DNA of 55,306 bases from Psammoneis japonica (Eukaryota), in assembly GCA_008632985.1 (NCBI GenBank), contig QPGO01000213.1, positions 62,001 to 117,306 of the forward strand, given 5' to 3'. The translations under genes were made by a program, and so were the position numbers. Shown here piece after piece: positions 3,801 through 50,446 of the stretch (position 1 is the stretch's first letter; each line of letters begins with the position of its first letter). The notes under the pieces are model-generated. The model did not search any database. It had not been told where the DNA came from and was given only the letters and a program-made list of their open reading frames with translations.

Positions 3801-6800
3801 ATTGTTGGCTGGAGTGTGTCTTGCTTGTTCTTGCAGCATCTCCCCTGCCCTCATCCACTTGGCATGTTTGTCACAAAAGAGAGGCGCTGTGACCATCACA
3901 CTCTGTGGGCAGCAGATGGGTGCCGAATGAAAAAAAAAACAGATCACACCCAGCTCTGGCTCAGTCAACAGCCAACAAAGCTCAATGAGGGCCAGCTTTG
4001 TAAGGTTTTCACAGAGTGCTTGGATGACAACACATGAGGTGGCTCATGCATGCAACTGGGCCACAAAATGACTGTGATGGCCTTCTGTGCCTGAGAGGAT
4101 TTTGTGGGGCGAACTTCAAAAAATTGCAAAATTGCCTCAATGCAACACTCACAGAGGGCTGGCAATTGATTTTTGTTCTGTTTTTGGTGCCACTAACTCA
4201 GTCAGTTTTTTGCAACTGTTGCCATTGTTTTGTCTCTGCTTCCTCTGGTGGCTGTTGGCAAACATTTCTGCAAGTTGATGAGCCATGTCTCATCATGTTC
4301 TTAAGAAGCCTTCATGCCACCAGCCCCAACCTTGGTGCCCACAAAAGCAGAGCTTTGAATGTGTGTCAGAACAGCTGGCTCTGGCACCAGCCAAACACAA
4401 GCAAAGTGCCAAGTCTCACAAAAGGTGGGAGAGGTGTGGTCCATTGACAGGGGCACTGAGGTGGTTTCTAATGTAAATTTTCAACAAATGACATGTGACA
4501 AACATTTTGAGTCTTGTCAGTCATTTGAGCCATGAGGTGTTCATTTGCTTGTCTTTGTTGATGCCACTTGCACTCTTTGGAGATTTTGGCCCATGGGAAG
4601 AACAAAGGAGGTGGCTGCCAAAGGTGGCCCAGAAGTGCAAAGTGAGAAGGAAAAGAAGAAGGGAGAGAACAGAAAAGAGAAAGGGTCAATTTGCTGTGTC
4701 GTCAATTTGTGGTCCTTGCCATTTTCCTCAAAACAGTCCACACACAATTTGTGGCACACTTTGGTTCAGCACTGGACATTGGAGCTTAAATTGCAGCAAC
4801 CACGGCCCCTTGTCAGCATGTGATGGACCACCAACCATGTCTTTTGCAAGTGCCTTGCTTCCAATCTGCCTCAGTTTCTTGCTTTCTTTGTCAACTCCTT
4901 GCTCCATCCTTGTCTTTTGCATCTTTTGTCCATGCATCTTCAGAGCTGTTTTGCAAAAGCGGGTCACATCTCACTGCCAAGTCCTGCCAAATCTCCAGGA
5001 AAAGTCATCATTTTGGCATGTTGGACATTCTGTGAATCTGACACTTTGCTGGCAAACTTGTCATTGCTCAAGTTGTCCCTGAAAACAGTTTGAGTCCCAG
5101 CCACAGCTTTCCAGAATGATGCTGTCTCTTGTCAATCAGAAAGCTTTCTTGTTTCCAGAAGGCATGTGTTTTGGCATGCTGGCATGCCAACCTTCTCCAG
5201 CTTGTGGCTCCACTTGTGGAGGATGATGAAAGTCTCCCACCATGGGAGCAGCAGCAGCTGGGGTGACATTGTTGATGCTGGGTCTTGCTGCAAACGGAGC
5301 AGCCACACAGCAGATGGGGCAATGCCGTTGCTTGGTGCTGGAGTGGTCTGAGCAGGTGGTGCTTCAGGGTCAGCCAGGGCAGCCAACAATGCCTCATTTG
5401 ATGATGGCAATGCAGAGGCCGCCACTCCAATGTTGAAGAGCAGCAGTTCTTTTTCCACCTTTGCCCATTCCTTGCATGCTCTGCAATTGGCACCAGCCAA
5501 CTCATTGCATTGTCCCTGAGCTCCACAGAAGAAAGTTGATTCCATGATGTGTTGGCAGCTTGGAATTGCCAGTCAACAAGCATCTTGTGCAGGTGCCATC
5601 ATTCAATGGCACAAAGATCAGCACAACACCTGATGGCTTTGCAAGCTTTCTGTCCTTCTTGTCCAGACTGAACCTGGCCACTCAAAGCCACAGATGTTTG
5701 TTGGCAAGACCAGATGACCAGCAACTGCTGATGTCATGCACAAGATGAACAATGGTCAAACACAGCACAGAGTTTCTTCTCATTTGGTGGTGTGAATGTC
5801 TTGTTGCAATGTGCAGTCTAAAAATCAGGCCACTGCCACAGATCTGCATGTTCATTCTCAAAAAGTTCTACATGCATCTTTGTTGTCTTGGCTCTTTTCT
5901 GCTCAAATGATTGATTGAGGTCTCAAGGCACAGCAGAAAAAACAGTGCCATCTTTCAAGAGCTCATTGCAAAACTCCTTTGTGACAAATGCTTTGCCATC
6001 ATCCTTGCCATCTGTGGTCATGTCAGTCTCAACAAATTTAGAGCACTGTTCTCAGAGCTTCTGCAGATGCTGTGCCCACAGTTCTGCCTCGTGTGCCATG
6101 AAATCATGATTGCTTGCAAGATCTGCACCATCCCCCACAGCCTTCTTGGGGTTTCCAGCACAAGTGACACTGCTGCAGGTTCCAATGGCAGACAGCATGG
6201 GTGCTCTGCATTTGAGCACAGCTGTGGCATGTGCTGAGTCTTTTTTGCAGCCCGGCTTGTTCTCAAACTTTGCACATTGGTTGATGCCACACCAAGGGCG
6301 GGGCTTTTTTTTTGACACCCACAACTTTTTGCCCACATTGTCACATTGACACATTTACAACAGAACTTTTCCTCTTCAATCAGGAGGTCCCTGGTCAAGA
6401 CAATGCCATTGAGTGCAATGTCATTGACAAAATGTCACCTCCACTCAAAGTGACAATGTTGCTTCCAATGCCGCAAGCAAGAGCCTGATTTTCTTCAAGC
6501 AGTGTGGCCACCTTCCAGTGCCATCCAAGGAGCAGCTTCTGCACCTCAACTTTCCAAACAGCAAGAAGACAGAGCCACAGAAGTTTAAAGCAGCTGTGGA
6601 GTTCCTGGAGTCTGGAGTGCATCATGAGCAAGACCAGCAGCACACAATTCTTCCACACGACAACAAATCCATGGATTTTCACAACAGCTGCTGTGCTGTG
6701 CAGAGTGCAGCCTGTCTTCACAGGTCTTGGGGCTCAAGCAGTGGTGCACAAGAAAAATCAAAATGTGTCAACCCTTGGCAAGCAGAGAATGAGCAGCTTG

Positions 6801-8820
6801 GCAGGATTTGTGAAAAAGGTTGTGTCCAAAGCTGCCTGCAGCACTGGCCCAAAAAACTCACAAACCAACGCGCAAACAGGTGGGCCAAAGTGAAACACAT
6901 GTCAAGCAGTTGTGTGCTGCAGTGTGAAAAGAAGCTTGTGCTTCAGAAATGTCTGTTTCAAATTTGGTGCCACACAACTGCTGTGTGTCAACTTGGATGA
7001 AGCAAGTGCACCAAAGCTTCGGTCTTGACTTTGGTTTTAACATCAAATGCAGCCAATGATCTGTTGCGTGAAAATGATGGCACATGATCTGAGATCAAGA
7101 ATTTGGGCAATCAGATCTCTCTTTTGAGGATGCCCTGGTTTTTTCATTGTTGCTTGCACACCATCTGCAAAGCCACTTGGGGTGCTGGTGGCTCTGGCAC
7201 ATTTGCAACACCACAATTGGCACTTGGCACACTTGACACAACACAGCTGGCACTTGAGTGATTCACTGGTGTGGATTTGTTGACGTCCTGCTCATCTGCA
7301 GGGATTGTTTCCATCCATCATGCACTTCTTTGCACACCTGGCTTGGATTCTTGGGGAGAGTCTTGCACTCAACTGGCAAGGTTTGCTGGAGACTCACAGA
7401 AATCCTGCTGTTGGCACTCTCTGTCAGAATTTCCTCCCAAGCAGCCGCCCGCCCCCAGCTGGTGGCTGCTCCTGCTTCCCACACACAACCCCAAATGTGC
7501 CCCAGCAGGTCGATGCCATGGGAGACGCTGACCAAACATTTGCCAACAACTCTCCAACATTTTCAGACAACGGCGACAAATTCAAATGCTGAGGACCACT
7601 GCTGCTTTTGCATTTCACAGCTGAGCTCAGACACTGCCCGTCTGGTTCCTGATGAAAACTTTGGGGCACCAACATGACCTCCACCTGTTTTCATCAATTG
7701 AAACTTGACAATTTTGACATCCACTTCTGCAGGAGATGTGGTGCCATTGCCTCCAATCTTTGCCAACCCAAAGTCATGATTGGAAGGCTTCACCATTGCA
7801 AAGGGCAGCTTTTCAGCAATGGCAAGGTCTTGAAAGTTGCAATCTCGAAGGATCACCACATTGCCCCATCCACCCCCAAAACATGCAAGGCAACCTTCCT
7901 TGTTGATGGCGCAGGACTGGTCACCGTTGTCAAACACAGCCATGACATTTCAAGTGGGGAGGCTGCAAACCACTCTGGGATTGCCACAAGAAATGCCTGA
8001 ATGACCAAGTTGGCCCGATGCACTGCTGCCCACAAGAAAGATTGATTGTTGTGAGACACAGACCCATCGACAAATCCAGGGGCAACAGAGATGTGCAACA
8101 ACGGCATCAACAATGACTGTGACGGAACAGTGGATGAGGCCAATTGCATCAAATCTCCATCCACTTTGCCTTTGGATGCCCCGTCCGCATCGTTGCAACC
8201 ATGGAATGAGCCATCAGTCTCTTTTGCCCCCCAAGTGTGCACCCCTTGCATGCACCCTCAAATGTCCCGAGCAGCACACCATCCATTTCTTCCTCCCTGT
8301 TGTTGTCCCAAGCAATCCCATGTGTCTGTTCCTTTCTCGCCGAGCACTGGCATGCTCCCCTCCAGTGACCCCTTCTCAGTTGCTCCTTTGGCGGTCTGTT
8401 CTCCTGCCTGTGAGAGAAGACAAAAGCGCCTCTCTCAATGAAAAAATGAGCATTTCAAAAGGAAATTTGCCGCAACAATCATGAGCTGCACATGAAGCCA
8501 CGACACATGGTGCATTGCTGTGGACATGCATTGCAGCCATGAAAACATGGCACGATGAAGGCCTTTTGTTCAAGTTCTCTTCGGCCCCATTCTCGGATCA
8601 CAACAGCTGTGCAACCCCCCCCATGATTTGTTCTCAATGCATGAGGACAAGATGTGAAAGAAAGCAACAAAGTCTGTTGTGGCATGGCAATGATCTGTGC
8701 AAGGCACACAAGTGCCGTGCTGTTTTTGCGCCGCGGCAAAACATGGGTGCTGCTGTGCCAACAACTCCTCCTCCCACACCTCTCGCGGTGCAATCTCGTC
8801 CGGCTGGCTCTTTAAGCAGC
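830..8820. mobile_element. Degenerate repeat/TE-derived block A, depleted of TpA and CpG (element family not identified)
   Basis: About 18 TA dinucleotides in ~8 kb (manual count), very high TG/CA, no intact gene; ORF translations are rich in C/H/Q and nearly lack Y. TE origin is inferred by analogy to blocks C and D, which contain retroelement motifs. Confidence 0.65.
7380..8400 (+). pseudogene. Hypermutated remnant of a secreted-type protein with a MopE-like putative metal-binding repeat
   Basis: Hydrophobic leader LTEILLLALSVRISSQAAA near 7390. At 8045-8150 it reads DTDPSTNPGATEMCNNGINNDCDGTVDEANC, matching the D-x-D-P-x-x-NPGA-x-E-x-C-x-x-GID-N-D-CDG-x-VDE repeat. Many stops and frameshifts. 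Confidence 0.6.
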
Positions 8821-9064
8821 AGCTGTCAATCTACCTGCCTTTTCCTTTTCATCATCTACACTGTTGCTTGTATGTGCATCTCATGACGCCAATGCTAGAG
8901 ACTCTGTTGTTCATGTTGCAGCGAGTTGCGTGTGATTTTCTCTCATGCCAAAGAAAAACACCAAAATTTCAGAAATTTTGAAAATTCGAAAATTTTCGTT
9001 GAAAAACAAAAAAAGTAAGCAAACGAGGCGAGCGAGCGAAAGATCCAACTTCGTCTACACAGTT

Positions 9065-12319: not shown

Positions 12320-14340
12320 GTAACATCACCGCGTGTGCGACGACATCGAAAGCAACAGCAGCAACCGATGATGATCATTCGAAGACGGCCAGAAGTGAGA
12401 TGCCGGCAGAGCTTTGCCAACGTCAAACATGATGTCAATGGGAATCATTCGGCTCTCAGAGGCATCACGTAGAAATTGTGCAGGAGAGCACCAGAAAAAA
12501 GCCCCAAGTCCATCCGTCCCGTCCACCTGCTGCTTCTGAACACTGGCTTCTCGGGAAATCGATTTGTGCCTTTGATCAGATGACATTTCAATCATAAAAG
12601 TGGGTGCCACACATTTGGTGCAGTCGTGCGAGCAAGGGGCAGTTGTCGTGCACATTCATTCGTGTGCTGCGCAAGTGAGATCCGAGTTGATTCTGGCACC
12701 GCAGTCAGCATGTTGCTGGGTTTTTGTTGTCTGCTCAGCCTGGCATTGATGTTTTCTGTGAGCAACAGGTTGGCACACTTTTGGCAAGGGCAGTCTGGCC
12801 CAAGCAGGGTCATCTGGTGCTTGCGTGGGGAGAGACCAGCACCGCCCTCCCATTGAGGACATCTGGAGCTGATCTGGGACAAAGTGATGCGTGATCTCCT
12901 GAGGCAACAATGAGTTGCTCACACCAAAGTGATGCTCATTCTCACTTCAACACAGCGGCACACCTCCAAGTGTGGCTTTCACCATTTCTCAGCTGGTTTG
13001 GCAGAGATTCTGTGCAGCGCTGCTTTGGCTTCCTTGCCAAACAGCCCATCACCTGAAACGACAAAGGGAGCAAAGTGGCGACATTGTTCAAGGCAGGGCT
13101 TGAGGTGCTTGCGCTTTTTCTCTCATTGGCATTGTCCCAGAACTTCTTCTGGTGTCTTGGGCAGGTGTGATTTTGCGTCTGTGTCTGGAGTGCGAACATC
13201 CATGATGGCATCTGTCCTTTTTTGTCCCAAACCCTTCAGACAAGAGATCTCCGCGGTCGCCATCCTTGGACATGTTGGAGTTTGTGTTGCTTTGTGAGTT
13301 GTTGGAGGTGCCCGGGCTTCCTGAGATGCAACCAATGGGGTCAACTCGGCTCTCAGAGTCATTGCATGGAAATTGTGCAAGAGAGCACCAGAACAAAAAG
13401 TCTCAAGTCCATCCATCCATCCACCCACATCTGAGCACTGACTTCTCGGGAAATCGATTGAAATGTCATCTGATCAAAGGCACAGCTCTTCACCATGTGG
13501 GTCAAAATGATTTTGATCAGATGACATTTCAGCTGACTTCCCGAAAAGTCATCAGCCCCAATCTCACCCTCCCACACAATGTTGTGCACATTGTTTCTAC
13601 TTTGCACACAGTTTTGCATTTTTCCTCAAATGCAAAACATCAATTGTGACCGACGCTACATTTTTGAATGACTCTGTGGGCACAACATTGCAACACGAGC
13701 GATGGTGGTGTTTGCACAACACAAATTTGCATTCACCGTTGACACAGAATGTAAACCAGAAATTTCAGAAAATTGCAACACGCCCAATGCCACACAACAT
13801 GCACACACACACTGAACACGCCACTCGCCGATGTCAATCACCATCAAAGACATCTTCCGGAATTGATGACAACTGTTTCTGGAGCTGCTTGTGAATGTCC
13901 GTGTGAAGCCAACTGGAAATGCTCTCACCCTTTTCATCTGAATCTGGTTTGATGAGCTGAGTTGTGGAAGTGAGCCCATGCTGTCGGGAGTGGAAAGACC
14001 CCTTGCTGTGGCAGCTCTTCGTCAACCTCACTCTCATGCCGCTCGCTCTCGCATGTCTTCAGAACAGCAGGTTTGTTTTTAAAAATGTCATCTCAACGGA
14101 TTCACCTGGTGACCCCTTTTAAAGGAATAAGCAGAACTTGGCAAGGTTGATTTGCCTCTGATGAATTCTGCAGCAGCACGCCCTGTGGATGTCCGGGACG
14201 AAATCTTCTTCAATTTGACACTGTTGCCAAAAGTGTTTTAACATGCGCTCAATTGCAGCATTGTCAATGAGCATGCAAAATTCTTTTGGCAACTGACTGG
14301 CAGTTTTCAATGACGTTGCCGCATCGGCTCTTTGCCATCG
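12320..14340. mobile_element. Degenerate repeat block B (TpA-depleted) with ~150-200 bp direct repeats at 12435-12590 and 13333-13531
   Basis: Shared tcggctctcagag...gaaattgtgca.gagagcaccaga...cttctcgggaaatcgatt...tttgatcagatgacatttca. The second copy also has an inverted repeat tgaaatgtcatctgatcaaa / tttgatcagatgacatttca (13460-13531). Confidence 0.7.
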
Positions 14341-14765: not shown

Positions 14766-16604
14766 ATGAAGACTCTCTTTGTCTTGTTGTTCGTATTGCC
14801 ATGTGCTTCACTAGCCTTTTTCAGTAGTTCTTCAAATACAAAAGCGACAATAGCATCGCGACAGCTCTGGAGCAAAAACGATTGGTCCGCTGCCGACGAT
14901 TGGACGTCGCTCTCTTCGGAATCCCATGAAAATGCCGTTGCGGATTCCGACTCGATTTTCAATCAAGACTTGGCTCGTAATGCTGCGGATGAAATGTATC
15001 TTGAAAAGGAAAGTTCGGATGATCAGTGGATTACCGACACGGTCGAGATGATTCATCACAATGGCTTTTACTTTGAGCCATCGCCAGACGATCCTCAGCT
15101 CTATGATACTGCTACGCAGGAAGAAGAAGATGCGTTGAAAATGAATTTTGTCGATGAAATGGGCAAGGAAATATCAATGTTGGTGCATTGCAACGAGCGA
15201 CCCGAGACCATGTTGATTAATGAGGGGAGAGCGCTGCCTCCGCTGACTCGAGAGGAACGAGACGATGTTTCTCAGCTAATTACAGAACAGAAACAGCCCA
15301 CGCCGTTCTTCAGAAAGGCAATCTCGACCATGTTCCAAAAGCACGCCACAACGAACGACGAGGGAGTCAAGATTATGGACGCCTTTGCCGTAGCCAGTTG
15401 GATGATGCAGAGTTTGAAGAATGAAGGAAAGGTTGGGCCTTTTGATAGACGGTATGTTGTTGTCAGAGCTGAGCGTCGCATATATGATGTATAATTTCTT
15501 AGACGTGTTCTCATTCACCAGCTCACTCTTGCATAATTGCTCTTGAAGTGTTCTTGGAGCCATTGCCAACTTTGGTACACATGGAACAGGCTACATGACA
15601 CGTAGCGACTTTGGTAATTTGTATCTCTCCGCCGTCACGTCGGATGAAACCCGCATGACGAGAAAACCAACGTCTCACTACTATCCAAAAACGAAAAAGA
15701 CGCCTTCGTCAGCTGGCCTTCAGGGTGTTTGGCGCGATATTCGCAATCATGGCATGTTGGGACCGATTGAAGCAGAGCGAAGGCAACTCGAAGAAAAATT
15801 AAAGGCCGAGATTCAACCGTTGCCGCAACAGAGCAACGACGATATCTGGGACGAGTGTGAGATTTTGGAGTATCAAGATTCGTTTCAAAACAGTGAAACC
15901 ATCAGTGATTCTGCCGTTGGCGCGTCATCTGGAAAGAGCAGCCATGAGCTAGTGGAACTGGCGTACGACAATCGAACTCCTAAATACATTCGCGACGGGG
16001 ATTTTGTGTTTATTGACGAGCAAACATGCATTGGTTGTACACAATGTGCTCAAATTTCGCCATCATCCTTTCTCATGCTTGACAATGGCAGGGCTCGAGC
16101 CTTTAGTCAACGCAACGGTCCCGATATTAGCCAAAGCGTTGCCGCGTGTCCGGTGAACTGCATCATGAGAGTTTCATTTCGTGAATTAAAGGAAATGGAA
16201 GCCAACCGCGACAAAGAGAACTGGGATGACGTGGATAGGCGACACTTGAATCATCGAAAGGGTAATGTTCCACTGTACGTGGCAGGAATGGATTCCGATG
16301 CCAATCATCGAAGCAGTTGGTACCATTACTTGAAACAAAAGTGTCACAGTAAGTAGAGTATCTATGTATCTCTTGCCAAGATTTTGCTTTCCTGATCCAG
16401 ATGCACCTAACGCTTCTCTGTTCTTCTTCTTATTCCCTCCCTCATTTAGTGTCCAAGGCTTGCCCGCAGAAGGGTTGTTATGACTGTCCTCACTATGATT
16501 CACCCGGCGAGAATCCATACTTTAAGAAGCAACATCAAGAGGCTGAGCACGTGCGAGCACAGGAATTCAGTGACAGTCTTTGGCGAAAAACGGCCGAATT
16601 GTAA
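14766..16604 (+). CDS. Probably plastid-targeted ferredoxin-domain protein (Fer4-type, similar to the DnaJ-Fer ferredoxin module); 3 exons: 14766-15451, 15549-16348, 16450-16604
   Basis: Signal peptide ending SLA-FF followed by a Ser-rich transit peptide. GT-AG introns 15452-15548 and 16349-16449 keep the frame. Motif FVFIDEQTCIGCTQCAQISPSSF...GRARAFSQ...AACPVNCI; C-terminal CPQKGCYDCP. Confidence 0.88.
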
Positions 16605-16619
16605 ACTAGGAATGCAGTT

Positions 16620-18717
16620 TTACTCGTGATACTTTATATCTAGCACAGAACCTGAGAACGGATACCCGTCTTCTCTCCAGATTTGCCAAATGACTCCTTG
16701 CGCCTGAAAGGCGACAAACATGTACTGAGCGTCGGGTGAAAATGCCAATCCAGTCGTTTCACTTTTAAAGCCAGGTCCGTCAAGAATGCTAAAATACTTG
16801 GCAGTGCCATCTCGTCCATGGACTCCCGACTTGCGGCCTCCCTCTTCGCAAAAGTAGATAATTCCATTCGGATCATTCAGAATGGATCCAATTTGATCAG
16901 GCCTTTTGTCAAAGGCACCACTCGTAGTGGTGAAATTGGTATACGTCAGTTCGTCAAGGTTCAAAATGTAGAGCCGACTTGACCTCTTTGTTGTAAAGTG
17001 GAGCAACCCATTCACGACATCAATGCCTTCACTGAGAGGATACAGTTCTGGGTTAGCATCAGCTTTGTTTAGAACCCATGCAAACGTTCCGTTCTCGCCG
17101 CCTTGATCGGGATGCATTTGAAGATAGTCGTGAGATCCGTGATTTAGCGTGCACCACTTTTCGGCAAACGTCGTTTTGTTGTAACAAGCCATTCCCTCGT
17201 CATTTGGTGTAAAACGAACCAACGCACCCTTCTTTGCGTCTTCTGTGGTGTAAAAGGTTGGAACGTCGTACCGAGTGTCAAACGAAAAGGATTCATAACT
17301 TCCGCCAAATTCAACAACGTTAGTTTGCTGAGCCTCCAGGACGCCAGACGGATCACATTGGTGTACTCTGCCTCTTCCATACTCTTCGCAAGACACCCAG
17401 CTGCCCCAAGGAGTTTTTCCGCCGCCACAGTTTCTCGTTGTGCCGTTTAAAATATTGTAATAATCCACAACATCTCCGTTGGCATTGAACTTTAAGACAT
17501 AAACTCCGCCTCGCTGCTGTGTCACTTCCGAGTTGGTAGTGTAGTAAAACCCTCCGTCAGGAGCCGGAAAGGTTGCCGCACCATCGGGTAGGTCATGAAG
17601 TAAAAGTGACGAATTGGATCCGTCCGCAAACTCAACGGGATGACCAGCATAGGCAATCGCTCTGGCTGTCAAGCCGTTGGAAAGCACAATCTCTCGTCCT
17701 TCTCGACTGAAAATAGAGGAGCGTATACAAGATTGATAAGATAAGATAAGTTATGATGGTTTCAGGGTAAGTAGTATTCGCAAGAACTTGTTCCAAATAT
17801 GCAGAGTACCTCTCATGAATAAACTTACTCTGCCACTCGAATACCTTGCGAGAAGTTTCCTGGATGGTACGTTGCAGGAGTGTCGGTCGGCATTGGGGTT
17901 TGAGTTGGAGACATGGAAATAGTCGGTGACTGTGAAGGCTGTACTGAAACTGTTGGACTCGATGTAGGAGAGACGGACGGTGATGAAGAGGGTGTAGTTG
18001 TCGGCAACGCAGATGGAGCAGGGCTACTCGTAGGAGATGCCGACGGCGTCTGCGTCGGTGCATCGGACGGTGTACGCGTCGGAAAATCTGATGGCGAATG
18101 CGTTGGAAGACCAGAGGGTTCACTCGTCGGAGAATGTGTTGGCACTGGAAACGTTGGAAAGTTTGATGGTAACATGGATGAAAGCTCCGTCGGAGAGGTA
18201 GTTGGGTCTTGTATTGTAGGACTATCTGTTGGTTCATTCGTTGGATCTGGAAAATCGTCATAGTCAGGTCTATTGCCAGCGCATTCAGCAATACCTCCAG
18301 CAGCACCACAGACACAATATGGGAGCAAACAACAGTTTTGAGTTTGTGCTAGAGTCGACATGCAGTCACTGTCAAACTTGCATGGGGTAATTTGGCCAGA
18401 GTTGAATGGTAGGCTGTGGTAGATCACGGAGTAGAAGTTGGGACAAGAGTCCAACTCGCCATCCTGCTGGTTTTGCACCTTAAGTAACAGAACAAACAAA
18501 AAGATATTAATGTCATTGTCGATAGATTAAACACTGAAACACAGTACCTGTGCTCCAATCACATATCACATCATTCTCAATTCATCGCACATGCCTGCTC
18601 GTTCGCGTTTTCTTTCTGCGATTCGCTCATGTCGACGGCATGGACACAGCCCAAAACTATCAATAGGATCGCAGCACGGATCACAACATGAATTAACAAG
18701 GGACTATTCTTATTCAT
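16620..18717 (-). CDS. Secreted PhoX-like (DUF839) alkaline phosphatase-family protein with a Cys-rich N-domain and Pro/Thr/Ser linker; exons 18717-18595, 18478-17829, 17706-16620
   Basis: Leader MNKNSPLLIHVVIRAAILLIVLGCVHA; PT/PS repeats; motifs PDGAATF, NCGGGKTPWGSWVSCEE and ETTGLAFSPD. Intron 17707-17828 is GT-AG and in frame; the first intron needs a GC donor. Confidence 0.85.
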
Positions 18718-19599
18718 GATTTGTTGCGCTCCACTAGCTAGCTTTCAATCTCATCGTGGCGACACAAGCTCAGTCAAAACGGTACTTTTGGCCGTTGACT
18801 GTCATTTTCTCTGTCTTTTCGAATTCAAACGAACAAATGAATATACAGTAATACATACATAGAATCATAGAAGACATAAATAATTTAGCGATGTACAACG
18901 TCACAATGGCGATAGACGTACGCACGGAAAGGCAGCCCAACGGCTTCCCATCATCAGCTGCAGCATGAGAGAGGACCGACCGCACCGGTGCAGCAGTCCT
19001 GCAAAATGGACATGTCTGGTGCGCGACTTTGTTGCAGAAGTTGAGTCATCCTGCCTGCCCATCTTCAAACTCAGATTCAGGCAAGACTCTGGGGGAGTGC
19101 CGCTCTGACATCATGATGTGTGCCATCAACTGACACCACAAAAGGTGTGTGGCCAATTTTCTGATTTGCTGGCTGGTGGTGGCTGGGTCGCAGAAGGTTG
19201 GCCATTTTGTTCCAACATTTTTGTTTTGCACTTGACTCTTGGAAAAGTCACCCACATCAGAGCGTGCATTGCAGTGATCCAGACCACCTTTCTTGCAGTG
19301 ATTTTTTTTAATCCATTGCAGGCAAAATTCTGTTGTTTCAAACCTTGACAGAGTTGTGCAGCTGGCAATGACATGTCAACTGTGACAAATTGTCATTTTC
19401 ATGCTGTGGGAGTGCTGACCAGACTCCCCCTCCCTGTGAGGAAAAATGTTTCACCATGAACAGGGGCAAGTTTTCCCTGTGAGAGTGCACACCCTCTGTC
19501 CCCACAAAACCTGTAAATTGGGGTCATTTGCGCTGCACCAAGAACATCACATTTTGTTGTTTGCGTTTAAATTGGATGATGCTGATGGAGACAACACCC

Positions 19600-20125
19600 C
19601 TGGAGTTTGCAGCAGCAGTTGCAACTTGCTTTCTTCAAGTGCCGCGCTGCTGGCAACCACCTTGTTCATTGCAAAAAAGTGCAGAACATGTTGTGAGAGA
19701 GCAGTGCAATGTGGGTGAACTAACACTGCCAACAGGAACGGCAACATGGACTTGCCCGTGCTGATTCTGGAGCAGGCGAGTTTGCAGCAGGAGCTGCTGC
19801 TCCATCATTTGAAGTGCCACTGCTCCACTCCACCTCATTCATTGCCAAAAAGAGCAAAACACATTGGGAGAGCATGACACAGATGAGCTGGCACAACCCA
19901 TGGGAATGGCAACATGAGCACGCCAGTGTGTCAGACGCCACTGATTCTGGAGCAGGTGAGTTTGCAGCAGAAGTGCTGTTGCTCCTCTGATTGTCCACCC
20001 TCACTCATTGCCAAAAAGTGTGGAGCACACATTGTGAGAGCATGTTGTGGATGAACTGACATGAACTGCAACACACACTTGCTGGTGCATGGGTGCATCT
20101 GGTGCCACTGATTCCAGAGCAACAT
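19600..20125 (+). repeat. About 3 diverged tandem units of ~175-180 bp
   Basis: Anchors gagtttgcagcag (~19603, 19778, 19958), cattgc.aaaaag (~19667, 19840, 20006) and tgatt(c)(t/c)(g/a)gagca (~19762, 19943, 20109). Confidence 0.75.
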
Positions 20126-20327
20126 GGGCGCTGGTGTGCCGCGCAAGACGTTGAGCACCCAGCTCCACCCCTGCAACTCAAAGAAAACACAAAAAGAAAG
20201 CATGTGAGCAAGCAAACAACATCTCAAGTGCCACAGAACACACTTGCTGGAACAGCTGTGGGAACAAGCACCGCCTGCATGTGCACCACATTGCACAAGG
20301 CGCTGCTCGAACAACAAAGTCATCGGC

Positions 20328-20770
20328 AATGACCAAGTTTGCCCCGCACCTCCTGTGCTGTGGACGGTTCATTGATGACATGTTTAGAGTGGTGTGGACC
20401 AGAAACAGCAGAGAGACTTGGGAAGCCTTTAAAAATGAGCCCAACAAATCAGTCAACCTCCAGTGGATTGCCCCCTCCCCACTCTCTGCCTCTGCAGTCT
20501 TTCTGGATCTGGATGTAGAAATTGGAGAAGAGGGATGCAACACAAGTGAACATGTCAAAAACCAATGAAGCTCTTTTTGTTGTGCACACCTTTTTTAAAG
20601 AGTGTCATGTGTGGTGAAGAACTTTTCATGCATGTGATTCTGAGAGTGGCAGGAACGAGCACCGCCTGCAGTCTTTCTGGATCTGGACATGGTTTTTGGA
20701 GAAAAGACGGATGCAAATGCATCAGAAACCAATGAACCTCCTTTTGCACATTCCTTGTTTGAAGAGCATC
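20328..20770 (+). mobile_element. Penelope-like element reverse transcriptase/thumb fragment, partly duplicated
   Basis: KFAPHLLCCGRFIDDMF...WEAFK...NLQW...SAVFLDLDVEI and MHQKPMNLLLHIP resemble the PLE consensus YYxRFIDDxF...FLDL...TYxKPMNLYLYIP. Confidence 0.8.
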
Positions 20771-23570
20771 ATTTGTGGCAACTTGTGATGATTCTGGATG
20801 CAAAACTGTGACACACACAATCATGCCAACACTGCAGAAAAGCAAGTTTGTGATGTGCGTGCACACAACAACACACCAGCAGCTCAGCATTTTGGATGCG
20901 GTGGATTCGTGACAGCACACTCACGATCACGAAACTCAAGCTGCACCCAAATCAAAACCCATCTTGACCAGCCAGAAGGACAGCAGGTTTCACCATGCAC
21001 TGAGCTGCTGTCATTGGCCAATGGGGCAAAGTCATTCACCACCATGTGGCCGGTTGTCGATTTACAGATTTGCGACCACACACAGGATCCACGTGAATTG
21101 TGACAGTGCTTGCTTTCATTTTTCAAACTTTGGGGAGAGGGTGCACTGTTGTGAAGTGTGCAGAAAATTGTGCATGTAAAAACACACTGAAAACGCCACA
21201 CAGACCAATGGGGCTGCACAAATCTGGGAAACATGAAGAAAAATGAAGGTGGGTCATGTGCGTGTGCATGAAGCACTGCATGTGCAGCAGACTGCACATG
21301 TGCAAAGACACACACACATGAGTGAGGAGGACAAAGTTGCAAACCAAGTTCAAATTGATTGCAATCAAAAGAAAAGTTGATGAGACATCAGATGAAATGC
21401 ACAAAACAACTGCATTTTGCTGAGCACTTTTGCCGGCAATTTTTTAAATTCTGCTTGTCAACAATTTTTACAATGCACATTAAAAAATTTACAAAGGAAA
21501 GTGGAAACCACTGCATTGCAGCCACTGATGCACTGTCACCCTTTGTCATGCTGCAGGTCAAAGGTCAAGTGCATGATTGCATTGCTGCCTTGCCATTTGA
21601 GACAGGCCCAACTTGGCAATTTCTCCACCTCCCCAGCTCTTGAGAGGGCTGACACACCAGGAAAAGCAGCAGCAGCAAAGTCATGTGCACCACACATGGT
21701 GCTCCCTTCTTAAAACAAAGACAAGGATCAAGGTTGAATCTAACTGTGTTTGAGCAGCCCTTTGCACAGCTTTTTCACAGAAGCATGCTGGAGACTGTCG
21801 GAATCCAGACAGGCCTTTCAGCACCTGATTTTGGCTGAAAACCCTCTGTGGCAATTTTTTGTGTCTGCTGCACCTTCTTGATGTCACAGCCCATCAGAAG
21901 AGTGGCAGCACAACCCACTTGACAAGCAGCCCATGCCATTCTTTCAGCATCGGAACAAAGAAAAAAACCATGTGTGTGGCTGCTGCACACTGCTGGCGCG
22001 CAGGTCTCAAAATGTCAATGCCTTCTTGTTTCTGCAAATTTTGTTGCAAACACAATGTGCCATGCCTTGCACATCAAGGGTGCGCTGTCAGGGAGTCAGT
22101 CAAGTTTGAATGCCCAATTGCCAGTCAACGCACTCCTCACATTGATGGCTCTTGTCAGTGTCATCTCCCACACACCAGCAGAGCAGCTTGTTCTTTGTTT
22201 CAATTTTTTGTGACCCCACAACCCACTTGTAAAACACTGACATGGCTGCACACACCTTGCCCAGAACATGTGATTTGGCTTTTGGCCAGAGCTTTGCATT
22301 GCTCTGGGAATGTGCAGTGCTCAGCAGCACCAAGAGAACAGCAGTGTCATTTGGCATGCCAAGAGACATTGCATTGTGGGTCATGGTTGCATTTTGCTGT
22401 GTGCTTCTTGAACTGGAGCAAAGGGCAGGCATGGAGCAAGCCTCAGACCTGGGCAAAATTGAGATGACCAAACTGCCATTGCCATTCCAAAATGAGCTCT
22501 TTGGCCTGCTGGCAAGGTTTTTGCTGTCTGCATCCAGCAATGCAAGAAAATGACAATTTTTTGCTGGCTCTCCTTTTTGACATGTGTGTCATTCAATCTT
22601 TTGCATTGCAGTCTTGTCAAGCACTCAAGTGCATTTCAAAAATGCAACTGCACATCTCTGTGCATGACTTTGTTGCTGAGAAATGATGCCCCAAGAGTCG
22701 CAAGCAAGAATGGTGCATTGCATTGCAAACAAAACACACTTTGTAGAAGATGAAAAGTGCAGCCAATTGGCAAATGCCCATCTTTTCCAAACAGCCCAAG
22801 CCATTTGTGCAATGCCCTCACAGAGCCCAATCATTGGGAAAAAAATGAGAGACTGGCAAAAAGAATGGCACAGGGTGCAGAGCCACACCCAAGATCAACT
22901 CCAAAACAAGCACTCAAAAGACACCCAACTTTGTCACAGTTCAAACATCTTGTGACTTTTTCAATGACATGGCGCAGAACACATCACACTTGTTTTGCAC
23001 TCTCCTTCTCATCACTTCTCAGGAAAGCAACTCCCAAGCTTTCTGACTTGTGGCCTTTTTTAATGCTGTGCAGGAGAGAACAAAATTTGTCAGGTCAAAT
23101 GATGTGCAGCTTGCACACAATGTGCATGCCGGAAGTCATGCAGAGCAGAGACACCAACCAGATGATGTCTGTGTCAATTGCTCAATTTGCTTTTGATCAA
23201 AAGCAAGCATCATCTGCTTTGACAGAAGAGCCACGGATGTCATTTGTTTGACACTCCCACACATTGGGGTGCATCAATTGCCCCCACCATGAATCAGAGC
23301 CAACTTGAGAAGCCGATTTATTTACATTTGGACGTTGCACTTTTTTTGTCTGGTTCTTCTGTTGCATCAAACACCTTGGCACCAACAAGACTTTAATTGG
23401 TCTTGCCTCATTGGCTCAGCAAAAGACAGAAGCTTGAGGGTGGCAACTTGCTCAAAATGGAGGCAGCAACTGCAGCTCATTCACAAGCACAGGGAGAGAA
23501 GAACATTCTGACAAAAAGAAGAGACCCAGGTCAGTGCATCAAGGTAACTTGATGAACACCATGGAGAACT

Positions 23571-23790
23571 GGGGACATGAGGAAGGCTTCCAGAATCGAG
23601 AACTGCCATCCGCATCCGAACGATGCATGCCAATGAGTCAAGTGGTCAGCACTGCTGCACAAAGAGTCAATGACTGCCACAGAGCTCTGGGGAGATGAGG
23701 AAGGCTTCAAGAATTGAGAAATGCCATCTGCATCTGAACGATGCATGCCAAGGAGTCCAGTGGTCAGCACTGCTGCACAAAGAGTCAATT
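23571..23790 (+). repeat. Two-copy direct repeat, ~100 bp match with ~119-bp period
   Basis: atgaggaaggcttc.agaat.gagaa.tgccatc.gcatc.gaacgatgcatgccaa.gagtc.agtggtcagcactgctgcacaaagagtcaat occurs twice; three of the differences are CG vs TG. Confidence 0.85.
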
Positions 23791-24692
23791 GCCATGCTCA
23801 TTGAATCACACAGAGACAGTCACCTGGAGGTCCAGGCTGTTGGCCAAAAGATTGAATCGAAGAAGCAGAAGGTCGTGCGGATGGCCACAAAGAAAATGCC
23901 ACCTGACTTCAACAGCAACAGCTGGGAAGACTTGGTTGCCTCGGTTTCCTTTGAAGAACAGGCAGCATTCCTTTGACCACTAAAGCCTTCAGTCTGTTGG
24001 GGTTAGCCAGAGACTTGTGGATGCAATCATGAATGGATCAACGGCGATGGACGTTTTCTTTCCCTTTTGTTCCATCGCTGTAGCCGTGCCACCTCCACTC
24101 TGTGGGATTCTCAAGCGTAATGAAACCGGATTGCAACTTTTTTCTCCATTCCTTCTTCAGCTTGAGACTTTTTCGATTGGTTTCTTTCGGGCCTGCTCGG
24201 GTGAGCTTGAGCCAGAAACCACCGCTATCCGACGAGGATAGAGAAGGCAATGTACTATCATTATCGTCCTTTTTCGTAGCGCCAATAGTATCTATGCACT
24301 ATTGTTTACCTCGGGTCAGTAGTGTTGCGTATCTATACCGCACCGCTTCCCACGCACTCTGCAATATGTGATACTAAATACAATACGCCCAAAGTTCGAC
24401 AAATGTCTAATGGTAGACAATAAAAATACCACAGTAGTACGTCAAACGTCTAATGATAAATAATCAAGCCGTATAGATGCCGAACGAATCGCCATATATC
24501 GGTATGCAAAGGCTCAATAAACTACAATGTCGTTCCCACCATGCTTCAGGATATTGATACTTGAGTGAATTTCACGACTTTTCCAAGACCCCGCAATACC
24601 GTACATGCTGAGAGTCAATCTCCGCTGTCTACTTGAGTACTGCCTTTTCTATAGGTAGGAAGACAACCATCAAGTCCCTCCACTTCCTTCGC

Positions 24693-25747
24693 TCATCGCC
24701 AACGCAAGCCTTCCAATGCAACAGCCATGTCATTTTCACTCTCCAAAAAGAAGCGATCACCCTCTGAATTGGTGCAATGAAAACTCAGACTAAAGTCACA
24801 AATTTGAACCTTGAAGGCAGGTATGTTGGATAGTAAGCTGCGAATCTGCTTCCCTCCTCTGCAGTCTCTCAGCTCTGAAAGCCAAGGAAACTCCTTCTCC
24901 TCTAGGATTCTCAAATCGAAACCCGCCGTGCATTCAAAGGCATTTGATTCATGTTCGGCCTGTAAAATGAGAGCCCTTCCTCCAGCCTGAGTACAATCTA
25001 CCTTGATGTCTTCATTCATCCAACAGAAGCGCTTTTCGTAGATGTCAGGGTACAACAGGGGGCCTCGTTCTTGGATGAAGGCTTCACTGTCTACAATGCA
25101 CACTGATTTCATGTTGTCACGCCTGAACAGAGTAACTCGGAGTCGGGGAACACGTTTGCCAATGTGTGCTCTTACCGCATCTTCTACAATGTCTGTTGTG
25201 ATGCCAGTGATGCCCTTCAAACCGAGCGCTTCATCATCATCACAGTACCAAGACTTGCGAACGGATGCTGTTGATGATGCGTACGGATTTTCAACCGTGA
25301 GCACCCCCACGGCGTCATGCGCACGTAACATATTTCGGAAGTCGAGCCGAATCTGATCTTGCGACCACGAAGCTATGACGTGTCGGCGACGCTTGTTTTT
25401 GTTGACATCGATGGATCTCTCGATTTGGTAGAGTTCCACAACTGCAAAGATGGAGTTCAACGGAAGGTTGTGAGTGAGTGGAACTCTTGGAAGCTCCTCC
25501 ATCGGCACTTCCCTAGAGAGAGAGATTCAGCCAAGCGACGGAAATCCCAGTTGGGTCACACGGAGAGAAAACTCTGGACCGCACTCTCGGAATGAGTGTT
25601 TGCGCAGATTTGTTTCCACAAGTCTCCACAGTCTTGACTTGAGGAGAGCATTTTGTTCCAGGATTTACACACTCTGGACGCAGATCCGACATCCTGAGCA
25701 TCAAGCCAGCGCATGACTAGCCGCCACGTAAAGTCATCCATCACCAT
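24693..25747 (-). pseudogene. F-box protein gene disrupted by an in-frame TGA (25556-25558) and a 2-bp slip in a (CT)n tract (~25520)
   Basis: N-terminus MDDFTWRLVMRWLDAQDVGSASRVCKSWNKM...DLWKQIC is an F-box. It reads through V*PNWDFRRLAESLS and shifts into the 271-aa ORF. Confidence 0.72.
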
Positions 25748-34743: not shown

Positions 34744-35309
34744 AGAAGGACACACTGACAGCGACGTATGAAAGTCCATTATTCTGGCCGAGAATTGAGT
34801 TAAACTTAAATCCTTTATACTTTGTAACGATGGTTTTGCTCTCTATCTATGACTGGTTAATGTGTAGCTTGGGAAACATAAGTAACCCGAGAGCTATGGC
34901 AGGTTGTCACCTCCTGCATCAATGTACTACACCTTTGCTTGGAATGTTTTGGAACGCACACCGTGAAAACCGAAAAAAGAATTCCTTGCCAAGTGCCACC
35001 GAAAAAATCAACTACCCTGCCGATCAACATCATGACGTTATTGTTTGTGCTTTTCCTTCTTCCTGTCACGCGCGCCACTCTACCAGCGCTGAATCTCACA
35101 AATTGCTGGCAACATGTGGCAATGAGTTCCGACTCAGACTTCCAAGTGGAAACGGGGGAGAGGGGGCACAACAACCCGCAAAGAACAACATGCAGCATCT
35201 ATGCAGGTTTCTGCGCTGGTGCACAATGGATGATTTTCAAGAAGCAGAAACTCTGCTGTGCCTGTGTGCATCTCATTTCTTTTGTCGCACCGCAGCTCTC
35301 TCAGAGTTC

Positions 35310-37770
35310 CCTGGCCAGATGGGCCTTGCAGCGCTCAACCACAATTCTGACAGTGTTCCCAGGGTTCCACCAGAGATTGCTGACATCCTTGGTCTGCATT
35401 TGGTGTTTTTGTGGGTTGCATCAGGGCTTTCCTTTCACTCTGGAGCTGCGAGAGTCCCCCAGCTCTGACATGGATGAAGTGACTGGGGGGCACAACTGCG
35501 GTGCAAGATCGGCCTCACAGCACTCTGCCACAGTTCTCAAAGTGTTCCCTGGGTGCTGTCAGAGACCCTCAATGCTGTCAGCCTGCAGTTCTTGTGTTGG
35601 TTGGTCACACATCTGGGTGTCCTTGCACTCTGGAGTTGGGAAATCACAGCTCTCACTCTGGCATGGATGAAGAGTGACTGTGTGGGGGGTGCAACTGCAA
35701 ACAGATGAGCCTTAAAACACTCCACCACTGTTCTCAAGTGTTCCCCAGATTGCACCAGAGAGTTGCAGTTTCTTTGGCCTGCAGTTGTTGTTTGGTCAGT
35801 CAGAGTCAAAGCTGTGTTCTGCCTCAAGCTTCCGTGTGCAGTCTCCAATGGGGGGGTCAAAATGGCCCATTTGTCACAGCATGCAGAATCTGCATGGGTT
35901 CCAGCATTGAACTTGCTGCAAAAGACAGAGTCAGCACACATGACCTGCTCTGTGCAAGTGCCACCAAAAAACTCAAAAACCAACATCATGGTGGGCAATC
36001 GGAGCGGATTTTGGTCATTTCATGAAAAAACCAAGTGAATTTTTTACTCTCATCTCTGCCAGATTTCTGCAGTCAATCTCTGAACAGCCCGTGTGTCATT
36101 CCAGATGGGCGGAAGAGAGAAGAGTGAAGACTCTGACTTCAAAAACTGAGCAAGGCATCAACAACCATCTTTGGTCTTTTGTCACCATGGCTCCATCTCT
36201 GAGGGCATTAAAATCTCAATGGGAAGCCAGAGAACACTTTGAGAGCAGTGGTTGAGAGTTGCAAGGCTTGCCTGCTGGTGCAGCTGTGCCAAGCAAAGCC
36301 TCCAACCTCACACAACTGCTGCTGGCCAACTCAACAATTGCAGGCTGAGGGCATTGAAGCTCTCCAGAGAAACCCTGGGAACTTTTTGAGAATGGCAGCA
36401 GAGTGTTGCAAGGCTAATCTGGTGCAGTTGCAACCCCCCAACTGCTCAATCCATGCCAAAATGAGAGGAGAAGAATTCCCAGCACTGCTCCAGAGCAAAA
36501 AGACACCCTGCAGTGCAATCAACTGACCCAACAACTGCAGGCTGAGGGCATTGAGTCAAGGTCTCAAGAAGAACCCAGGGAACACTTGAGAATGGTGATG
36601 GAGTGTTGCAAGGCTCATCTGGCACAGTTGCAGCCACCAGGGACTCAAACCATGCCAGAGTGAGAGCTGAAACTCCTGACTCCAGAGTGAAAAGACACAC
36701 ACTGATGCAGCCAACCCACCCAAAAATTGCAGGCTGAGCACATTGGATTTCTCCAGCAAAGCCCAAAGAACACTTTGAGAGAATGGCGGTGGAGCATTGC
36801 AAGGCTCATCTGGAGCAGTTGCAGTCACCAGTCACTTGATCCATGCCAGAGTGAGAGCTGACAAAACTCCTGACTCCAGAGCAAAAGGACACACTCGTGC
36901 AGCCAACCAACCCAAGAACTGAGAGCTGAGGGCATCAGGGCTTGACTGCAGGCTGAGAGGATTGAAGGTCTCCCATGGAACCCAGGGAACACTTTGAGAA
37001 TGGTGGTGTGGCATTGCAAAAGGCTCATCTGGCACAGTTGCAGCCACCAGACACTTGGCCCATGCCAGAGTGAGAGCTGAAACTCCTGACTTCAGAGTGA
37101 AAAGACACCCTGATGCAACCAACCATTACAATGACTTCAGCCTGAGAGCATTGAAGGTCTTCAGTGGATTCCAAGGAACACTTTGAAAATGGCGAGTGAT
37201 TCATGGCACTGAAACTCCCAACTCCAGAGTGAAAGGACACCCTGGCACAACCAAACAGCCCAACAGCTGCAGGCTGAAGGCACTGAAGATCATGCACGGA
37301 ACACTTTGCGAATGGTCGTGGAGTTTTGAAGAGCTCATCTGGTGCAGCTGCAGCCCCCAGTCCCTCAATCCATGCAAAAATGAGAGGAGAAAAAAATTCC
37401 CATTTGCTCCAGAGTGAAAGGACACCCCCTGGTGCAACAAACCAACCCACAACTGCAGGCTGAAGGCATCAATGGTCTCCTGTGGAACCCAGGAGGAGGC
37501 CACACTTTGAGAATGGTGATGGTGGGTTTGTTGAAGGGCTCATCTGGTGCTGCTGCAGTCCCTGGTCACTCAATCCATGACAAAATGAGAAGAGAAAATT
37601 TCCCAACTGCTCCAGAGTGAAAGGACACCCCGATGCAACCAACCAACCCAACAGCCACAGGCTGAGGTCATTGAGTCAAAGGTCTCAAGAGGAACCCAGG
37701 GGACCATTTGAGAATGGTGGTGGAGTGTTGAGAGGCTCACCTGGTGTGGCTGCAGCCACAATGCTCCAGG
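35310..37770. repeat. Diverged ~190-200 bp satellite: about 3 units in minus orientation (35310-35800) and about 9 units in plus orientation (36230-37770)
   Basis: Anchor ggaacactttgagaatgg at ~36386, 36586, 36776, 36994, 37183, 37306, 37507 and 37708; its reverse complement (ttct..agtgttccc) at ~35345, 35535 and 35730. Confidence 0.85.
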
Positions 37771-38259
37771 CACACAGCAACATGATGACAGATTGGTGCT
37801 GACCTCATCCAGCCCACATCAACTCCAAGATCTTCATTGGTCAATGCCCCCAGTGCTCATGCTCTTTCATGCTTGCCACCTTCTTGCCAATTTGAACAAG
37901 GGCTTCCCTGTGAGCCACAATGCAAATGTGTGCTCCATTGCATTTGAAGCCATGACGGCAATGATGAATTGTCCCTTGTGGGTCATCGTGACTCACCTGA
38001 AGACTGGCAGGAGTGGCTGCACTGTCAAGAAACCAGGTCACCTCATTGAGTCAATGAAGGCTGAAATCCACATCCCAACCAACAAGTTGCCAACTGCCCA
38101 AAAAAAATCCCAAGTGCTCAGCAAAGTCAGAAACATTGAACAAACAGTTTTTGATGGCACCACAATGGGACAGCATTGCAAATGCTCTCAGATCAAAAGG
38201 CTTGCATGCTGTGATCAACATTTTCAGCCAAAGTGCCAATCAAGAACATGACACACTCT

Positions 38260-46770: not shown

Positions 46771-47093
46771 GACCTCGCAGACCCCATAACCCATATATCG
46801 ATCGAAAGCTCGTGACGAGCTGAATGAGGTCCAACGCATGTTGTATCGGTCGGGGTGACTGGAAAGCGAATGTTTTTCGTTGAAAACTTGTTAGTTACTT
46901 AAGAAAAAATAACTGTTATGTTCGATTATCCCTAATTAACATTTATGTTTATATACCATTATTAAATGTATAAAAAATATGACATTTAATCCGGAGTTCG
47001 GAAAGGTCATACAGATTTGGATACTATATAAATTACTTAGGGACAGTTTTTTTCTAGACTTTGCTATTGTTCTGGAGCCTCCACAATGGCCGA

Positions 47094-47166
47094 TATTGAA
47101 AATCGGCTTTCGTCACCCACTGCAACTTGGTGTTATGTAGTGGGTGACGAAAGCCGATTTTCGATA
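47094..47166. repeat. 31-bp inverted repeat with an 11-nt loop
   Basis: tattgaaaatcggctttcgtcacccactgca ... tgtagtgggtgacgaaagccgattttcgata; 24-bp perfect core. Confidence 0.92.
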
Positions 47167-50355: not shown

Positions 50356-50446
50356 TTTATAATGAGTGCCAGTTGAGCAGAATGCCGTTTGAGTTATTGA
50401 CGTGTCTGAAGGGTTATTGTGGAGTAGTTTGAATGAGAATAATAAT

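What the first reader, a model, noticed from the sequence alone, without database searches (positions are those of the whole stretch)
20328..20770. A second, unrelated retroelement class (Penelope-like) carries the same Tyr->Cys/His signature
Seen: PHLLCCGRFIDDMF and HQKPMNLLLHIP, versus the expected xYLLYYxRFIDDxF and YQKPMNLYLYIP. Both TAY->TGY and TAY->CAY occur in one ORF, so both strands are hit. Inference: the mutator is host-encoded and works on chromosomal dsDNA. RNA editing of a retro-transcript would give a strand-biased A->G pattern only.
Basis: partly seen in the sequence, partly recalled or inferred. Interest (0 to 1): 0.75.

Follow-up and report, generated by a model that had tools for sequence, protein, structure and literature searches.

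The report
TpA mutator hits all transposon classes
This dead Penelope-like retroelement in a diatom bears the scar of a host process that rewrites TA steps to TG or CA on both DNA strands in Penelope-like, LTR and DNA transposons alike, a kind of mutational genome defence that I found described only in one 2026 preprint on an unrelated alga and whose enzyme is unknown.

Summary
Both motifs are real, but they lie in different frames, not one ORF, and the two Cys of CCGRFIDD were probably already present in the founder of this repeat family. The element is a non-autonomous remnant of a Penelope-like RT family (less-mutated relative YYGRFIDD, TERT-like fold) in a diatom. TA>TG versus TA>CA is 249:225 in Penelope-like, 325:309 in copia and 95:101 in piggyBac-like copies (pairs share references). 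In young copies A>G outside pyrimidine-purine steps is near zero. Erasure follows chromosomal domains that cut through elements, prefers TAC/TAT and outruns CpG decay. Transcript editing is rejected and a host chromosomal mutator is supported. Adenine deamination and a double-stranded substrate are inferences. The same signature is published for Bigelowiella natans (bioRxiv 10.64898/2026.01.13.699255). I found no diatom report. The scan noted this process many times on other DNA of this genome.

The parts
19255..21530 (+). Non-autonomous repeat derived from a Penelope-like element; at least 40 copies in the genome, mostly 78-88% identical to this one
   Evidence: 41 matches from 40 scored of 92 candidates
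20249..20320 (+). RT motif B remnant GTAVGTSTACMCTTLHKAL; Tyr>Cys and Tyr>His in one frame
   Evidence: 71% identical to L063 aa 507-530; codons
20317..20538 (+). RT motif C remnant with PHLLCCGRFIDDMF (20344-20385), different frame from motif B
   Evidence: 47% identical to L063 aa 528-599, E 7e-18
20492..20614 (+). First copy of the internal duplication (FLDLD ... CQKPMKLFLLCTP, frameshifted)
20666..20781 (+). Second copy of the internal duplication with HQKPMNLLLHIP (20720-20755)
18920..23980 (.). TpA-erased domain holding the element (TA o/e 0.03-0.15; CG also low)
15751..25556 (+). Stretch with a same-locus duplicate or allele on G000:C148: 98% identical in the left genic flank, 88% in the element
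1001..8900 (.). Another TpA-erased domain
12500..14000 (.). Another TpA-erased domain
35300..41000 (.). TpA-erased domain with a ~190-200 nt tandem repeat and a copia RT remnant (38343-38579)
44500..46730 (.). TpA-erased domain ending at the left arm of a small inverted-repeat element

Best explanation
The stretch is a decayed, non-autonomous copy of a Penelope-like retroelement in a diatom. Shown: its TA steps, like those of copia and piggyBac-like copies, have become TG or CA with no strand bias, in domains that cut through elements and spare some copies. Inferred: a host enzyme, steered by silent (probably CG-methylated) chromatin rather than by pairing of repeats, deaminates the A of TpA on either strand of chromosomal DNA. 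The inosine is copied as G, so each TpA ends as TG or CA and is then no longer a target. A TadA/ADAT2-type deaminase is the likeliest catalyst because of the strict 5' T and the preference for a 3' pyrimidine. Hits are scattered rather than in one-strand tracts, erase most TpA soon after insertion and destroy Tyr codons. Slower CpG decay follows in the same domains. My odds: host, post-insertion, chromosomal about 0.9; adenine deamination as the chemistry about 0.6 of that.
For: Young Penelope-like copies against L063: TA>TG/CA in 57 of 118, 91 of 125 and 83 of 124 sites, while A>G after A is 1/457, 3/473, 0/469 and after G 1/338, 0/351, 0/346. Symmetry: Penelope-like 249:225 (p=0.29, 644 TA sites, 7 pairs on 2 references), piggyBac-like 95:101 (p=0.72, 337 sites, 6 pairs on 3 references), copia 325:309 (p=0.55). 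The YY before RFIDD appears as YY, YC, CC, CH, HC and HH across 13 motif hits. Mutated sites cluster in part of an element (L083/L088 and L063/L062, no shuffle of 5000 as clustered); the 5' repeat of L063 has TG/CA at 12 sites where its 3' repeat keeps TA, and none the other way. No strand tracts in 13 runs tests, lowest P 0.059. Base 3' of the hit A: C 202/483, T 126/324, G 72/307, A 47/308; same direction in 6 of 6 context classes in copia and 5 of 6 in the window's family. TadA-derived editors prefer UACG/TACG (PMC8052359, passages). TA loss outruns CG loss 14-19 fold in young and about 5 fold in older copies. The same signature arises de novo in B. natans mutation-accumulation lines. DNMT5 methylates diatom TEs (PMC9998398, abstract); C5-methyltransferase genes are present here.
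Against: No special enzyme was found. The genome holds an ADAT2-like gene, a TadA-like gene with an N-terminal extension, dCMP- and guanine-deaminase-like genes and two A_deamin genes, none tied to the process; no ADAT3-like gene was recognised among these hits. No G preference at +2 (factor 1.03-1.15), and upstream A at -2 and -3 also matters, so the motif is not the TadA UACG motif. One context class reversed in the window's family (TTAG 66, CTAA 83). Pairs reuse the same reference sites and some copia copies (L108, L109, L113) share their changes, so p-values on context are inflated. Methylation and chromatin were not measured. Defence function is assumed: a partly mutated founder still gave at least 40 copies.
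Confidence: 0.55

Rival explanations
1. Same host, chromosomal, domain-targeted process, but the lesion is on the T of TpA: an oxidised thymine (5-hydroxymethyl- or 5-formyl-uracil) laid down as a silencing mark mispairs with G and gives T>C.
For: TA>TG and TA>CA are the same event seen from either base, so fit equally. In dinoflagellates 5hmU marks TEs and preferentially replaces T in TA and TC (PMC11572971, passages and start of abstract). That 5-formyluracil causes T>C is recalled.
Against: No Tet_JBP match in the genome (0 candidates; weak in a six-frame search). T>C before C is near zero (1/252, 0/254, 2/247), unlike the TA+TC preference in dinoflagellates.
Confidence: 0.17
2. An error-prone polymerase (Pol eta-like) does repair or late synthesis in silent domains and misinserts opposite A or T at TpA, perhaps triggered by repair of deaminated 5mC.
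For: CG decay occurs in the same domains. Pol eta A>G errors at WA motifs are recalled from somatic hypermutation.
Against: AA>AG is 1/457, 3/473, 0/469 against TA>TG 26/118, 52/125, 39/124, far stricter than the recalled WA rule. TA loss runs ahead of CG loss. No strand tracts.
Confidence: 0.1
3. A>I editing of element RNA (sense and antisense, ADAR-like) is fixed by reverse transcription or RNA-templated conversion.
For: Two A_deamin-family genes exist. A same-locus duplicate shares most TA outcomes with the window copy (8 of 87 differ, against 43% for dispersed copies), which by itself also fits editing before insertion.
Against: DNA transposons are hit equally. TG and CA alternate along single copies. 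Boundaries cut through elements. A deaminase gene copy and C5-methyltransferase-bearing repeats are also TA-erased. TAG, the recalled ADAR motif, is disfavoured.
Confidence: 0.04
4. Selection or CpG decay alone explains the pattern: Cys/His come from Arg codons, and TA-poor elements are favoured.
For: CG>TG/CA is real and symmetric, and some Arg(CGY) became Cys/His (1 of 18, 1 of 21, 5 of 21).
Against: Tyr codons of L063 became Cys/His in 14 of 21, 21 of 24 and 19 of 23 cases. Different copies resolve the same TA to TG or CA (44 columns with TA, TG and CA among four copies). The changes fall in dead copies.
Confidence: 0.02
5. Sequencing or assembly artefact at modified bases.
For: Only one read set holds the stretch, and it may be the source of the assembly.
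Against: Short-read contigs match erased DNA letter for letter. Copies share heritable patterns (L108/L109; window/L002).
Confidence: 0.02

Closest known systems
TpA hypermutation of integrated viral DNA in Bigelowiella natans (Mettrop et al., bioRxiv 10.64898/2026.01.13.699255; read parts 1-3 of 5, abstract to conclusion, plus passages)
   Same: Transitions TpA>TpG and TpA>CpA, confined to regions of foreign or mobile DNA; TpA-depleted sequences there are enriched for RT and DDE domains; ADAT2 proposed, enzyme unproven.
   Different: Different SAR branch (diatom versus chlorarachniophyte). Here it is near-saturating on Penelope-like, LTR and DNA transposons, with strand symmetry tested per class, a 3'-pyrimidine preference and paired CpG decay; the preprint's main text has no hit for 'diatom', 'CpG', 'trinucleotide' or 'context'. 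It has direct de novo rates, which I lack.
Repeat-induced point mutation (RIP) of ascomycetes (recalled; search listing)
   Same: Dinucleotide-specific transitions on both strands that destroy repeats after insertion.
   Different: Opposite direction (A:T>G:C). Some repeat partners are spared (L067 region; duplicate pair L143/L152), so location seems to matter more than homology.
TadA/ADAT2-ADAT3 tRNA A34 deaminases and TadA-derived base editors (PMC8052359, passages)
   Same: Strict 5' T/U and a liking for 3' C.
   Different: No +2 G preference, T as good as C at +1, upstream A effects; natural enzymes act on tRNA, and no link to DNA was tested here.
Endonuclease-less Penelope-like elements (Athena, Coprina; PMC8557442, passages)
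   Same: TERT-like RT with a DK motif, no GIY-YIG domain, direct terminal repeats.
   Different: Dispersed inside contigs, no telomeric repeats at the ends of four copies, no hammerhead found, and an extra upstream ORF; clade not assigned.

Membership tests
Penelope-like elements (PLE) | RT most akin to telomerase RT | tested here: met
   Model of the L063 RT core (pLDDT 78): the three best Foldseek hits and 9 of the best 10 are telomerase RT. Sequence searches of PDB found nothing. The window remnant is 47% identical to L063 aa 528-599. No tree with reference PLEs was built.
Penelope-like elements (PLE) | DKG-type motif upstream of the RT core | tested here: met
   DKNLG in L063 and L067, nearly invariant in 19 aligned homologs; variant third residue as in other PLE clades. 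Not within the RT pieces recovered from the window remnant.
Penelope-like elements (PLE) | Pseudo-LTRs, partial tandems, inverted truncated copies | tested here: met
   About 445-nt direct repeats in 4 of 4 L063-family copies; an inverted pair in L061.
Penelope-like elements (PLE) | Hammerhead ribozyme in the terminal repeat | tested here: inconclusive
   No hammerhead at E<=1 in L063, L067, L001; repeats are partly mutated and some PLE clades lack it.
EN+ PLE (Penelope/Poseidon, Neptune, Nematis, Naiad, Chlamys) | GIY-YIG endonuclease fused to RT | tested here: not met
   No such domain in the 769-aa ORF or the 510-aa upstream ORF; none among Pfam labels of 120 homologs.
EN- PLE (Athena, Coprina) | Attachment to telomeric repeats at chromosome ends | tested here: not met
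   No TTAGGG-like tandem (repeat unit recalled) at the ends of 4 copies; matches are spread through contig interiors.
B. natans-type TpA hypermutation | A>G and T>C almost only at TpA | tested here: met
B. natans-type TpA hypermutation | Confined to regions of foreign or mobile DNA, genes spared | tested here: met
B. natans-type TpA hypermutation | About 1000-fold raised de novo rate in culture | not testable with these tools
   Only relative divergence: TA change per step is 150-650 times the change per site outside pyrimidine-purine steps.
Fungal RIP | C:G>T:A transitions | tested here: not met
   The dominant change is A:T>G:C; C>T is a slower, CpG-bound process.
Fungal RIP | Both partners of a duplication are mutated | tested here: not met
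   L067/L107 keeps TA while 88-92% identical partners lost it; duplicate pair L143/L152 keeps TA in both.
Fungal RIP | Premeiotic timing and RID dependence | not testable with these tools
   Needs crosses and mutants.

The most novel reading that the evidence does not exclude
This diatom encodes a natural DNA adenine deaminase that is guided by silent chromatin to T-A-pyrimidine sites in intact chromosomal DNA and erases every class of mobile element. Shared with a rhizarian alga, it would be an old, overlooked genome-defence pathway of the SAR lineage and a native counterpart of engineered adenine base editors.
Probability: 0.35. Interest if true: 0.9.

Novelty: new variant of a known kind. 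Interest (0 to 1): 0.62.

Why it matters
Known mutational defences against repeats (RIP, APOBEC, CpG decay) act on cytosine, and DNA adenine deamination is known mainly from engineered TadA (recalled) plus the few cases cited in the B. natans preprint. A second lineage with a saturating, strand-symmetric TpA mutator on all transposon classes makes the question testable. It gives a sequence fingerprint (TAC/TAT over TAG/TAA, TTAA most resistant) to screen candidate enzymes against, and half-erased copies in which to watch it act. It also warns that TE ages and annotations in such genomes are distorted: erased DNA loses TAA/TAG stops and Tyr, so it gives long false ORFs and escapes homology searches. 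The Penelope-like remnant itself is ordinary; its value is as a second and, with piggyBac, a third class of witness.

Tried and rejected
The mutated 81-aa fragment found no homolog in the large protein set and its 137-aa frame had no Pfam family; the less-mutated L063 ORF was used instead. PDB sequence searches gave nothing. Rfam gave no hammerhead. The metagenome scan returned 2 loci, both with normal TA, so spread to other diatoms is untested; its patterns included Tyr and would miss erased copies. No RNA holder listed. No strand-coordinated tracts. No TACG preference. Deaminase searches gave only ordinary-looking genes; the Asn noted in the preprint is present in the ADAT2-like gene (GCRNDRFGG) but is, from recall, common to ADAT2. 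No Tet_JBP match. The window-versus-C148 comparison was meant to show ongoing TA change but showed that most of it predates their split. The gypsy pair was too small to count (4 TG, 7 CA, 6 TA of 17). Copia: 10 of the 14 other loci were used; L116, L118, L119, L120 were left out as further pieces on contigs already counted; L114, an unerased relative (75 TA kept, 4 TG, 18 CA), is inside the pooled count. Searches that found no diatom report. The preprint's supplements (mutation list) could not be seen and may hold flanking-base data.

Full report
Setting. The window is G000:C215:62001-117306 of a 91.4-Mb assembly. The named homologs among the 120 best hits of its VTC gene are diatoms, at 62-66% identity. 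Five blocks have TA o/e near zero while gene-rich DNA has 0.3-1.0: 62 TA in 21,503 nt against 1,164 in 28,703 nt. CG is low in the same blocks.

The observation. Both peptides exist, at 20344-20385 and 20720-20755, but in different frames with stops between them. The second lies in a duplicated piece; the first copy of that piece reads CQKPMKLFLLCTP, so the same two ancestral Tyr became Cys, Cys in one copy and His, His in the other. RT similarity runs from 20249 to about 20806 in several frames. It is part of a 2.3-kb repeat (19255-21530) with at least 40 copies. The CC codons are fixed in the family (23 of 23 and 22 of 23), so the founder probably already carried them, while the His codons vary among copies.

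What the element is. A protein search of the genome and 20 fetched stretches gave less-mutated relatives. L063 (C214) has a 769-aa RT frame with DKNLG, YYGRFIDD and YQKAMNLYLYIP, an upstream 510-aa frame, about 445-nt direct repeats and no GIY-YIG domain. It has 712 homologs among 7,998 scored candidates, labelled DUF8422/HTH_animal/RVT_1. Its predicted RT core is closest to telomerase RT. These features fit a Penelope-like element as defined in PMC8557442 (passages); I put this at about 85%. It fails the endonuclease test of EN+ clades and the telomere test of EN- clades, no hammerhead was found, and no tree was built, so the clade is open.

The mutation. Against L063, three 95-97% identical copies changed 57 of 118, 91 of 125 and 83 of 124 TA steps, all but one to TG or CA, while A>G after A or G was 0-3 in 338-473 sites. 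Tyr codons became Cys or His in 14 of 21, 21 of 24 and 19 of 23 cases, Arg(CGY) in only 1 of 18, 1 of 21 and 5 of 21.

Relative to element sense, TG:CA is 249:225 for Penelope-like copies (644 TA sites, 7 pairs), 95:101 for piggyBac-like DNA transposons (337 sites, 6 pairs) and 325:309 for copia (10 of 14 other loci). Single pairs range from 14:25 to 45:30 and, in copia, from 4:18 (L114, an unerased relative) to 30:17. A model with flanking bases on 833 Penelope-like and piggyBac-like sites gives a strand factor of 0.98 (p=0.77). Pairs share references and three copia copies share history, so counts are not independent, but sense-transcript editing would predict almost no CA. Non-RT genes are affected too: a deaminase gene copy (C151) and repeats bearing a C5-methyltransferase.

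How it is aimed. Within half-erased elements the changed sites cluster at one end (no shuffle of 5000 as clustered for L083/L088 and L063/L062; P 0.001-0.013 for three more; not significant in the other pairs). In L063 the 5' repeat has TG/CA at 12 sites where the 3' repeat has TA, none the reverse. About 20 kb of C267 holding broken copia and Penelope-like copies keeps TA o/e of 0.2-0.9 while 88-92% identical partners elsewhere are erased, and a broken gene duplicate keeps its TA. Position, not repeat pairing, appears to decide; this is inference. TG and CA alternate at random along copies (13 runs tests, lowest P 0.059), so there is no sign of one processive pass on one strand.

Timing. TA loss exceeds CG loss 14-19 fold in young, about 5 fold in older and 1.6 fold in the oldest pair. 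The window copy and its same-locus duplicate on C148 differ at 8 of 87 TA-type sites (43% for dispersed copies) but at 27 of 65 CG-type sites: TA erasure came early, CpG decay went on. This result alone does not separate pre- from post-insertion change; the DNA transposons and domain edges do.

Fingerprint. The hit A is followed by C 202/483, T 126/324, G 72/307, A 47/308. The order holds in 6 of 6 classes in copia and 5 of 6 in the window's family. A at -2 and -3 raises the rate, G at +2 does not. TTAA is the most frequent survivor (20 of 62 in the window). The 5' T and 3' C resemble TadA-derived editors (TACG; PMC8052359, passages) and disagree with recalled ADAR (UAG) and Pol eta (WA) rules, but the match is partial.

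Candidates. Family searches found ADAT2-like, TadA-like, dCMP- and guanine-deaminase-like genes and two A_deamin genes, several C5-methyltransferases and no Tet_JBP. None is linked to the process.

What is known. Mettrop et al. (bioRxiv 10.64898/2026.01.13.699255; parts 1-3 of 5 read; passages; supplements not seen) report de novo TpA>TpG/CpA hypermutation of integrated viruses in Bigelowiella natans and propose ADAT2. Six searches found no diatom report. Dinoflagellate 5hmU favours TA and TC and marks TEs (PMC11572971, passages), which keeps a thymine-side mechanism alive. PMC9998398 (abstract) and PMC12344493 (passages) support CG methylation of diatom TEs. Earlier notes of this scan describe the same process and the TAY preference on other pieces of this genome; I had found the preprint and the +1 effect before seeing the notes that name them.

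Verdict. Observation partly confirmed, interpretation supported in its conclusion but not in its argument. The remnant is an ordinary dead element; the mutator it records is real, general across transposon classes, and a new variant of a process described once. Interest 0.62.

Noticed in passing
window 46728-47235: Small element with 38-nt inverted arms and a TA-rich interior right at the edge of an erased domain; the arm on the domain side shows one TA>TG and one CG>CA against the other arm, plus two transversions.
   Followed up: partly
window 38343-38579: Copia RT remnant in an erased block, with Tyr replaced by His or Cys.
   Followed up: partly
window 35300-37760: Degenerate tandem repeat of about 190-200 nt in direct and inverted orientation.
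   Followed up: no
window 44142-44324 and 44580-44772: Local duplicate in which the copy inside the erased domain shows TA>TG and CG>TG/CA against the copy outside.
   Followed up: partly
L063 1484-5964 (G000:C214): Penelope-like family without endonuclease yet dispersed inside contigs, with an extra 510-aa upstream ORF of no known family; two metagenome contigs hold a relative with long frames upstream of the RT. How it integrates is unexplained.
   Followed up: partly
L130 1114-2827 (G000:C79) and L128 (C40): Two A_deamin-family genes where one ADAT1 would be expected (recalled); the C79 gene borders an erased domain.
   Followed up: partly
L101 313-1785, minus strand (G000:C79): Deaminase domain in one frame with what looks like a 2-oxoglutarate/Fe oxygenase (assignment recalled from motifs, not scanned).
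   Followed up: no
L106 1315-1773, minus strand (G000:C151): TA-erased copy of a deaminase gene, 45% identical to L101 over 60 aa, with Tyr replaced by His or Cys.
   Followed up: partly
L147, L148, L149, L153 (G000:C301, C297): Multi-copy repeat carrying a C5 DNA methyltransferase, TA-erased but keeping most CG; carrier element not identified.
   Followed up: partly
L067 3147-3183 and 3820-3874: Two related near-perfect palindromes between the copia and Penelope-like copies (the miRNA labels are far below threshold).
   Followed up: no
window near 50400-50600: Run of N, an assembly gap.
   Followed up: no
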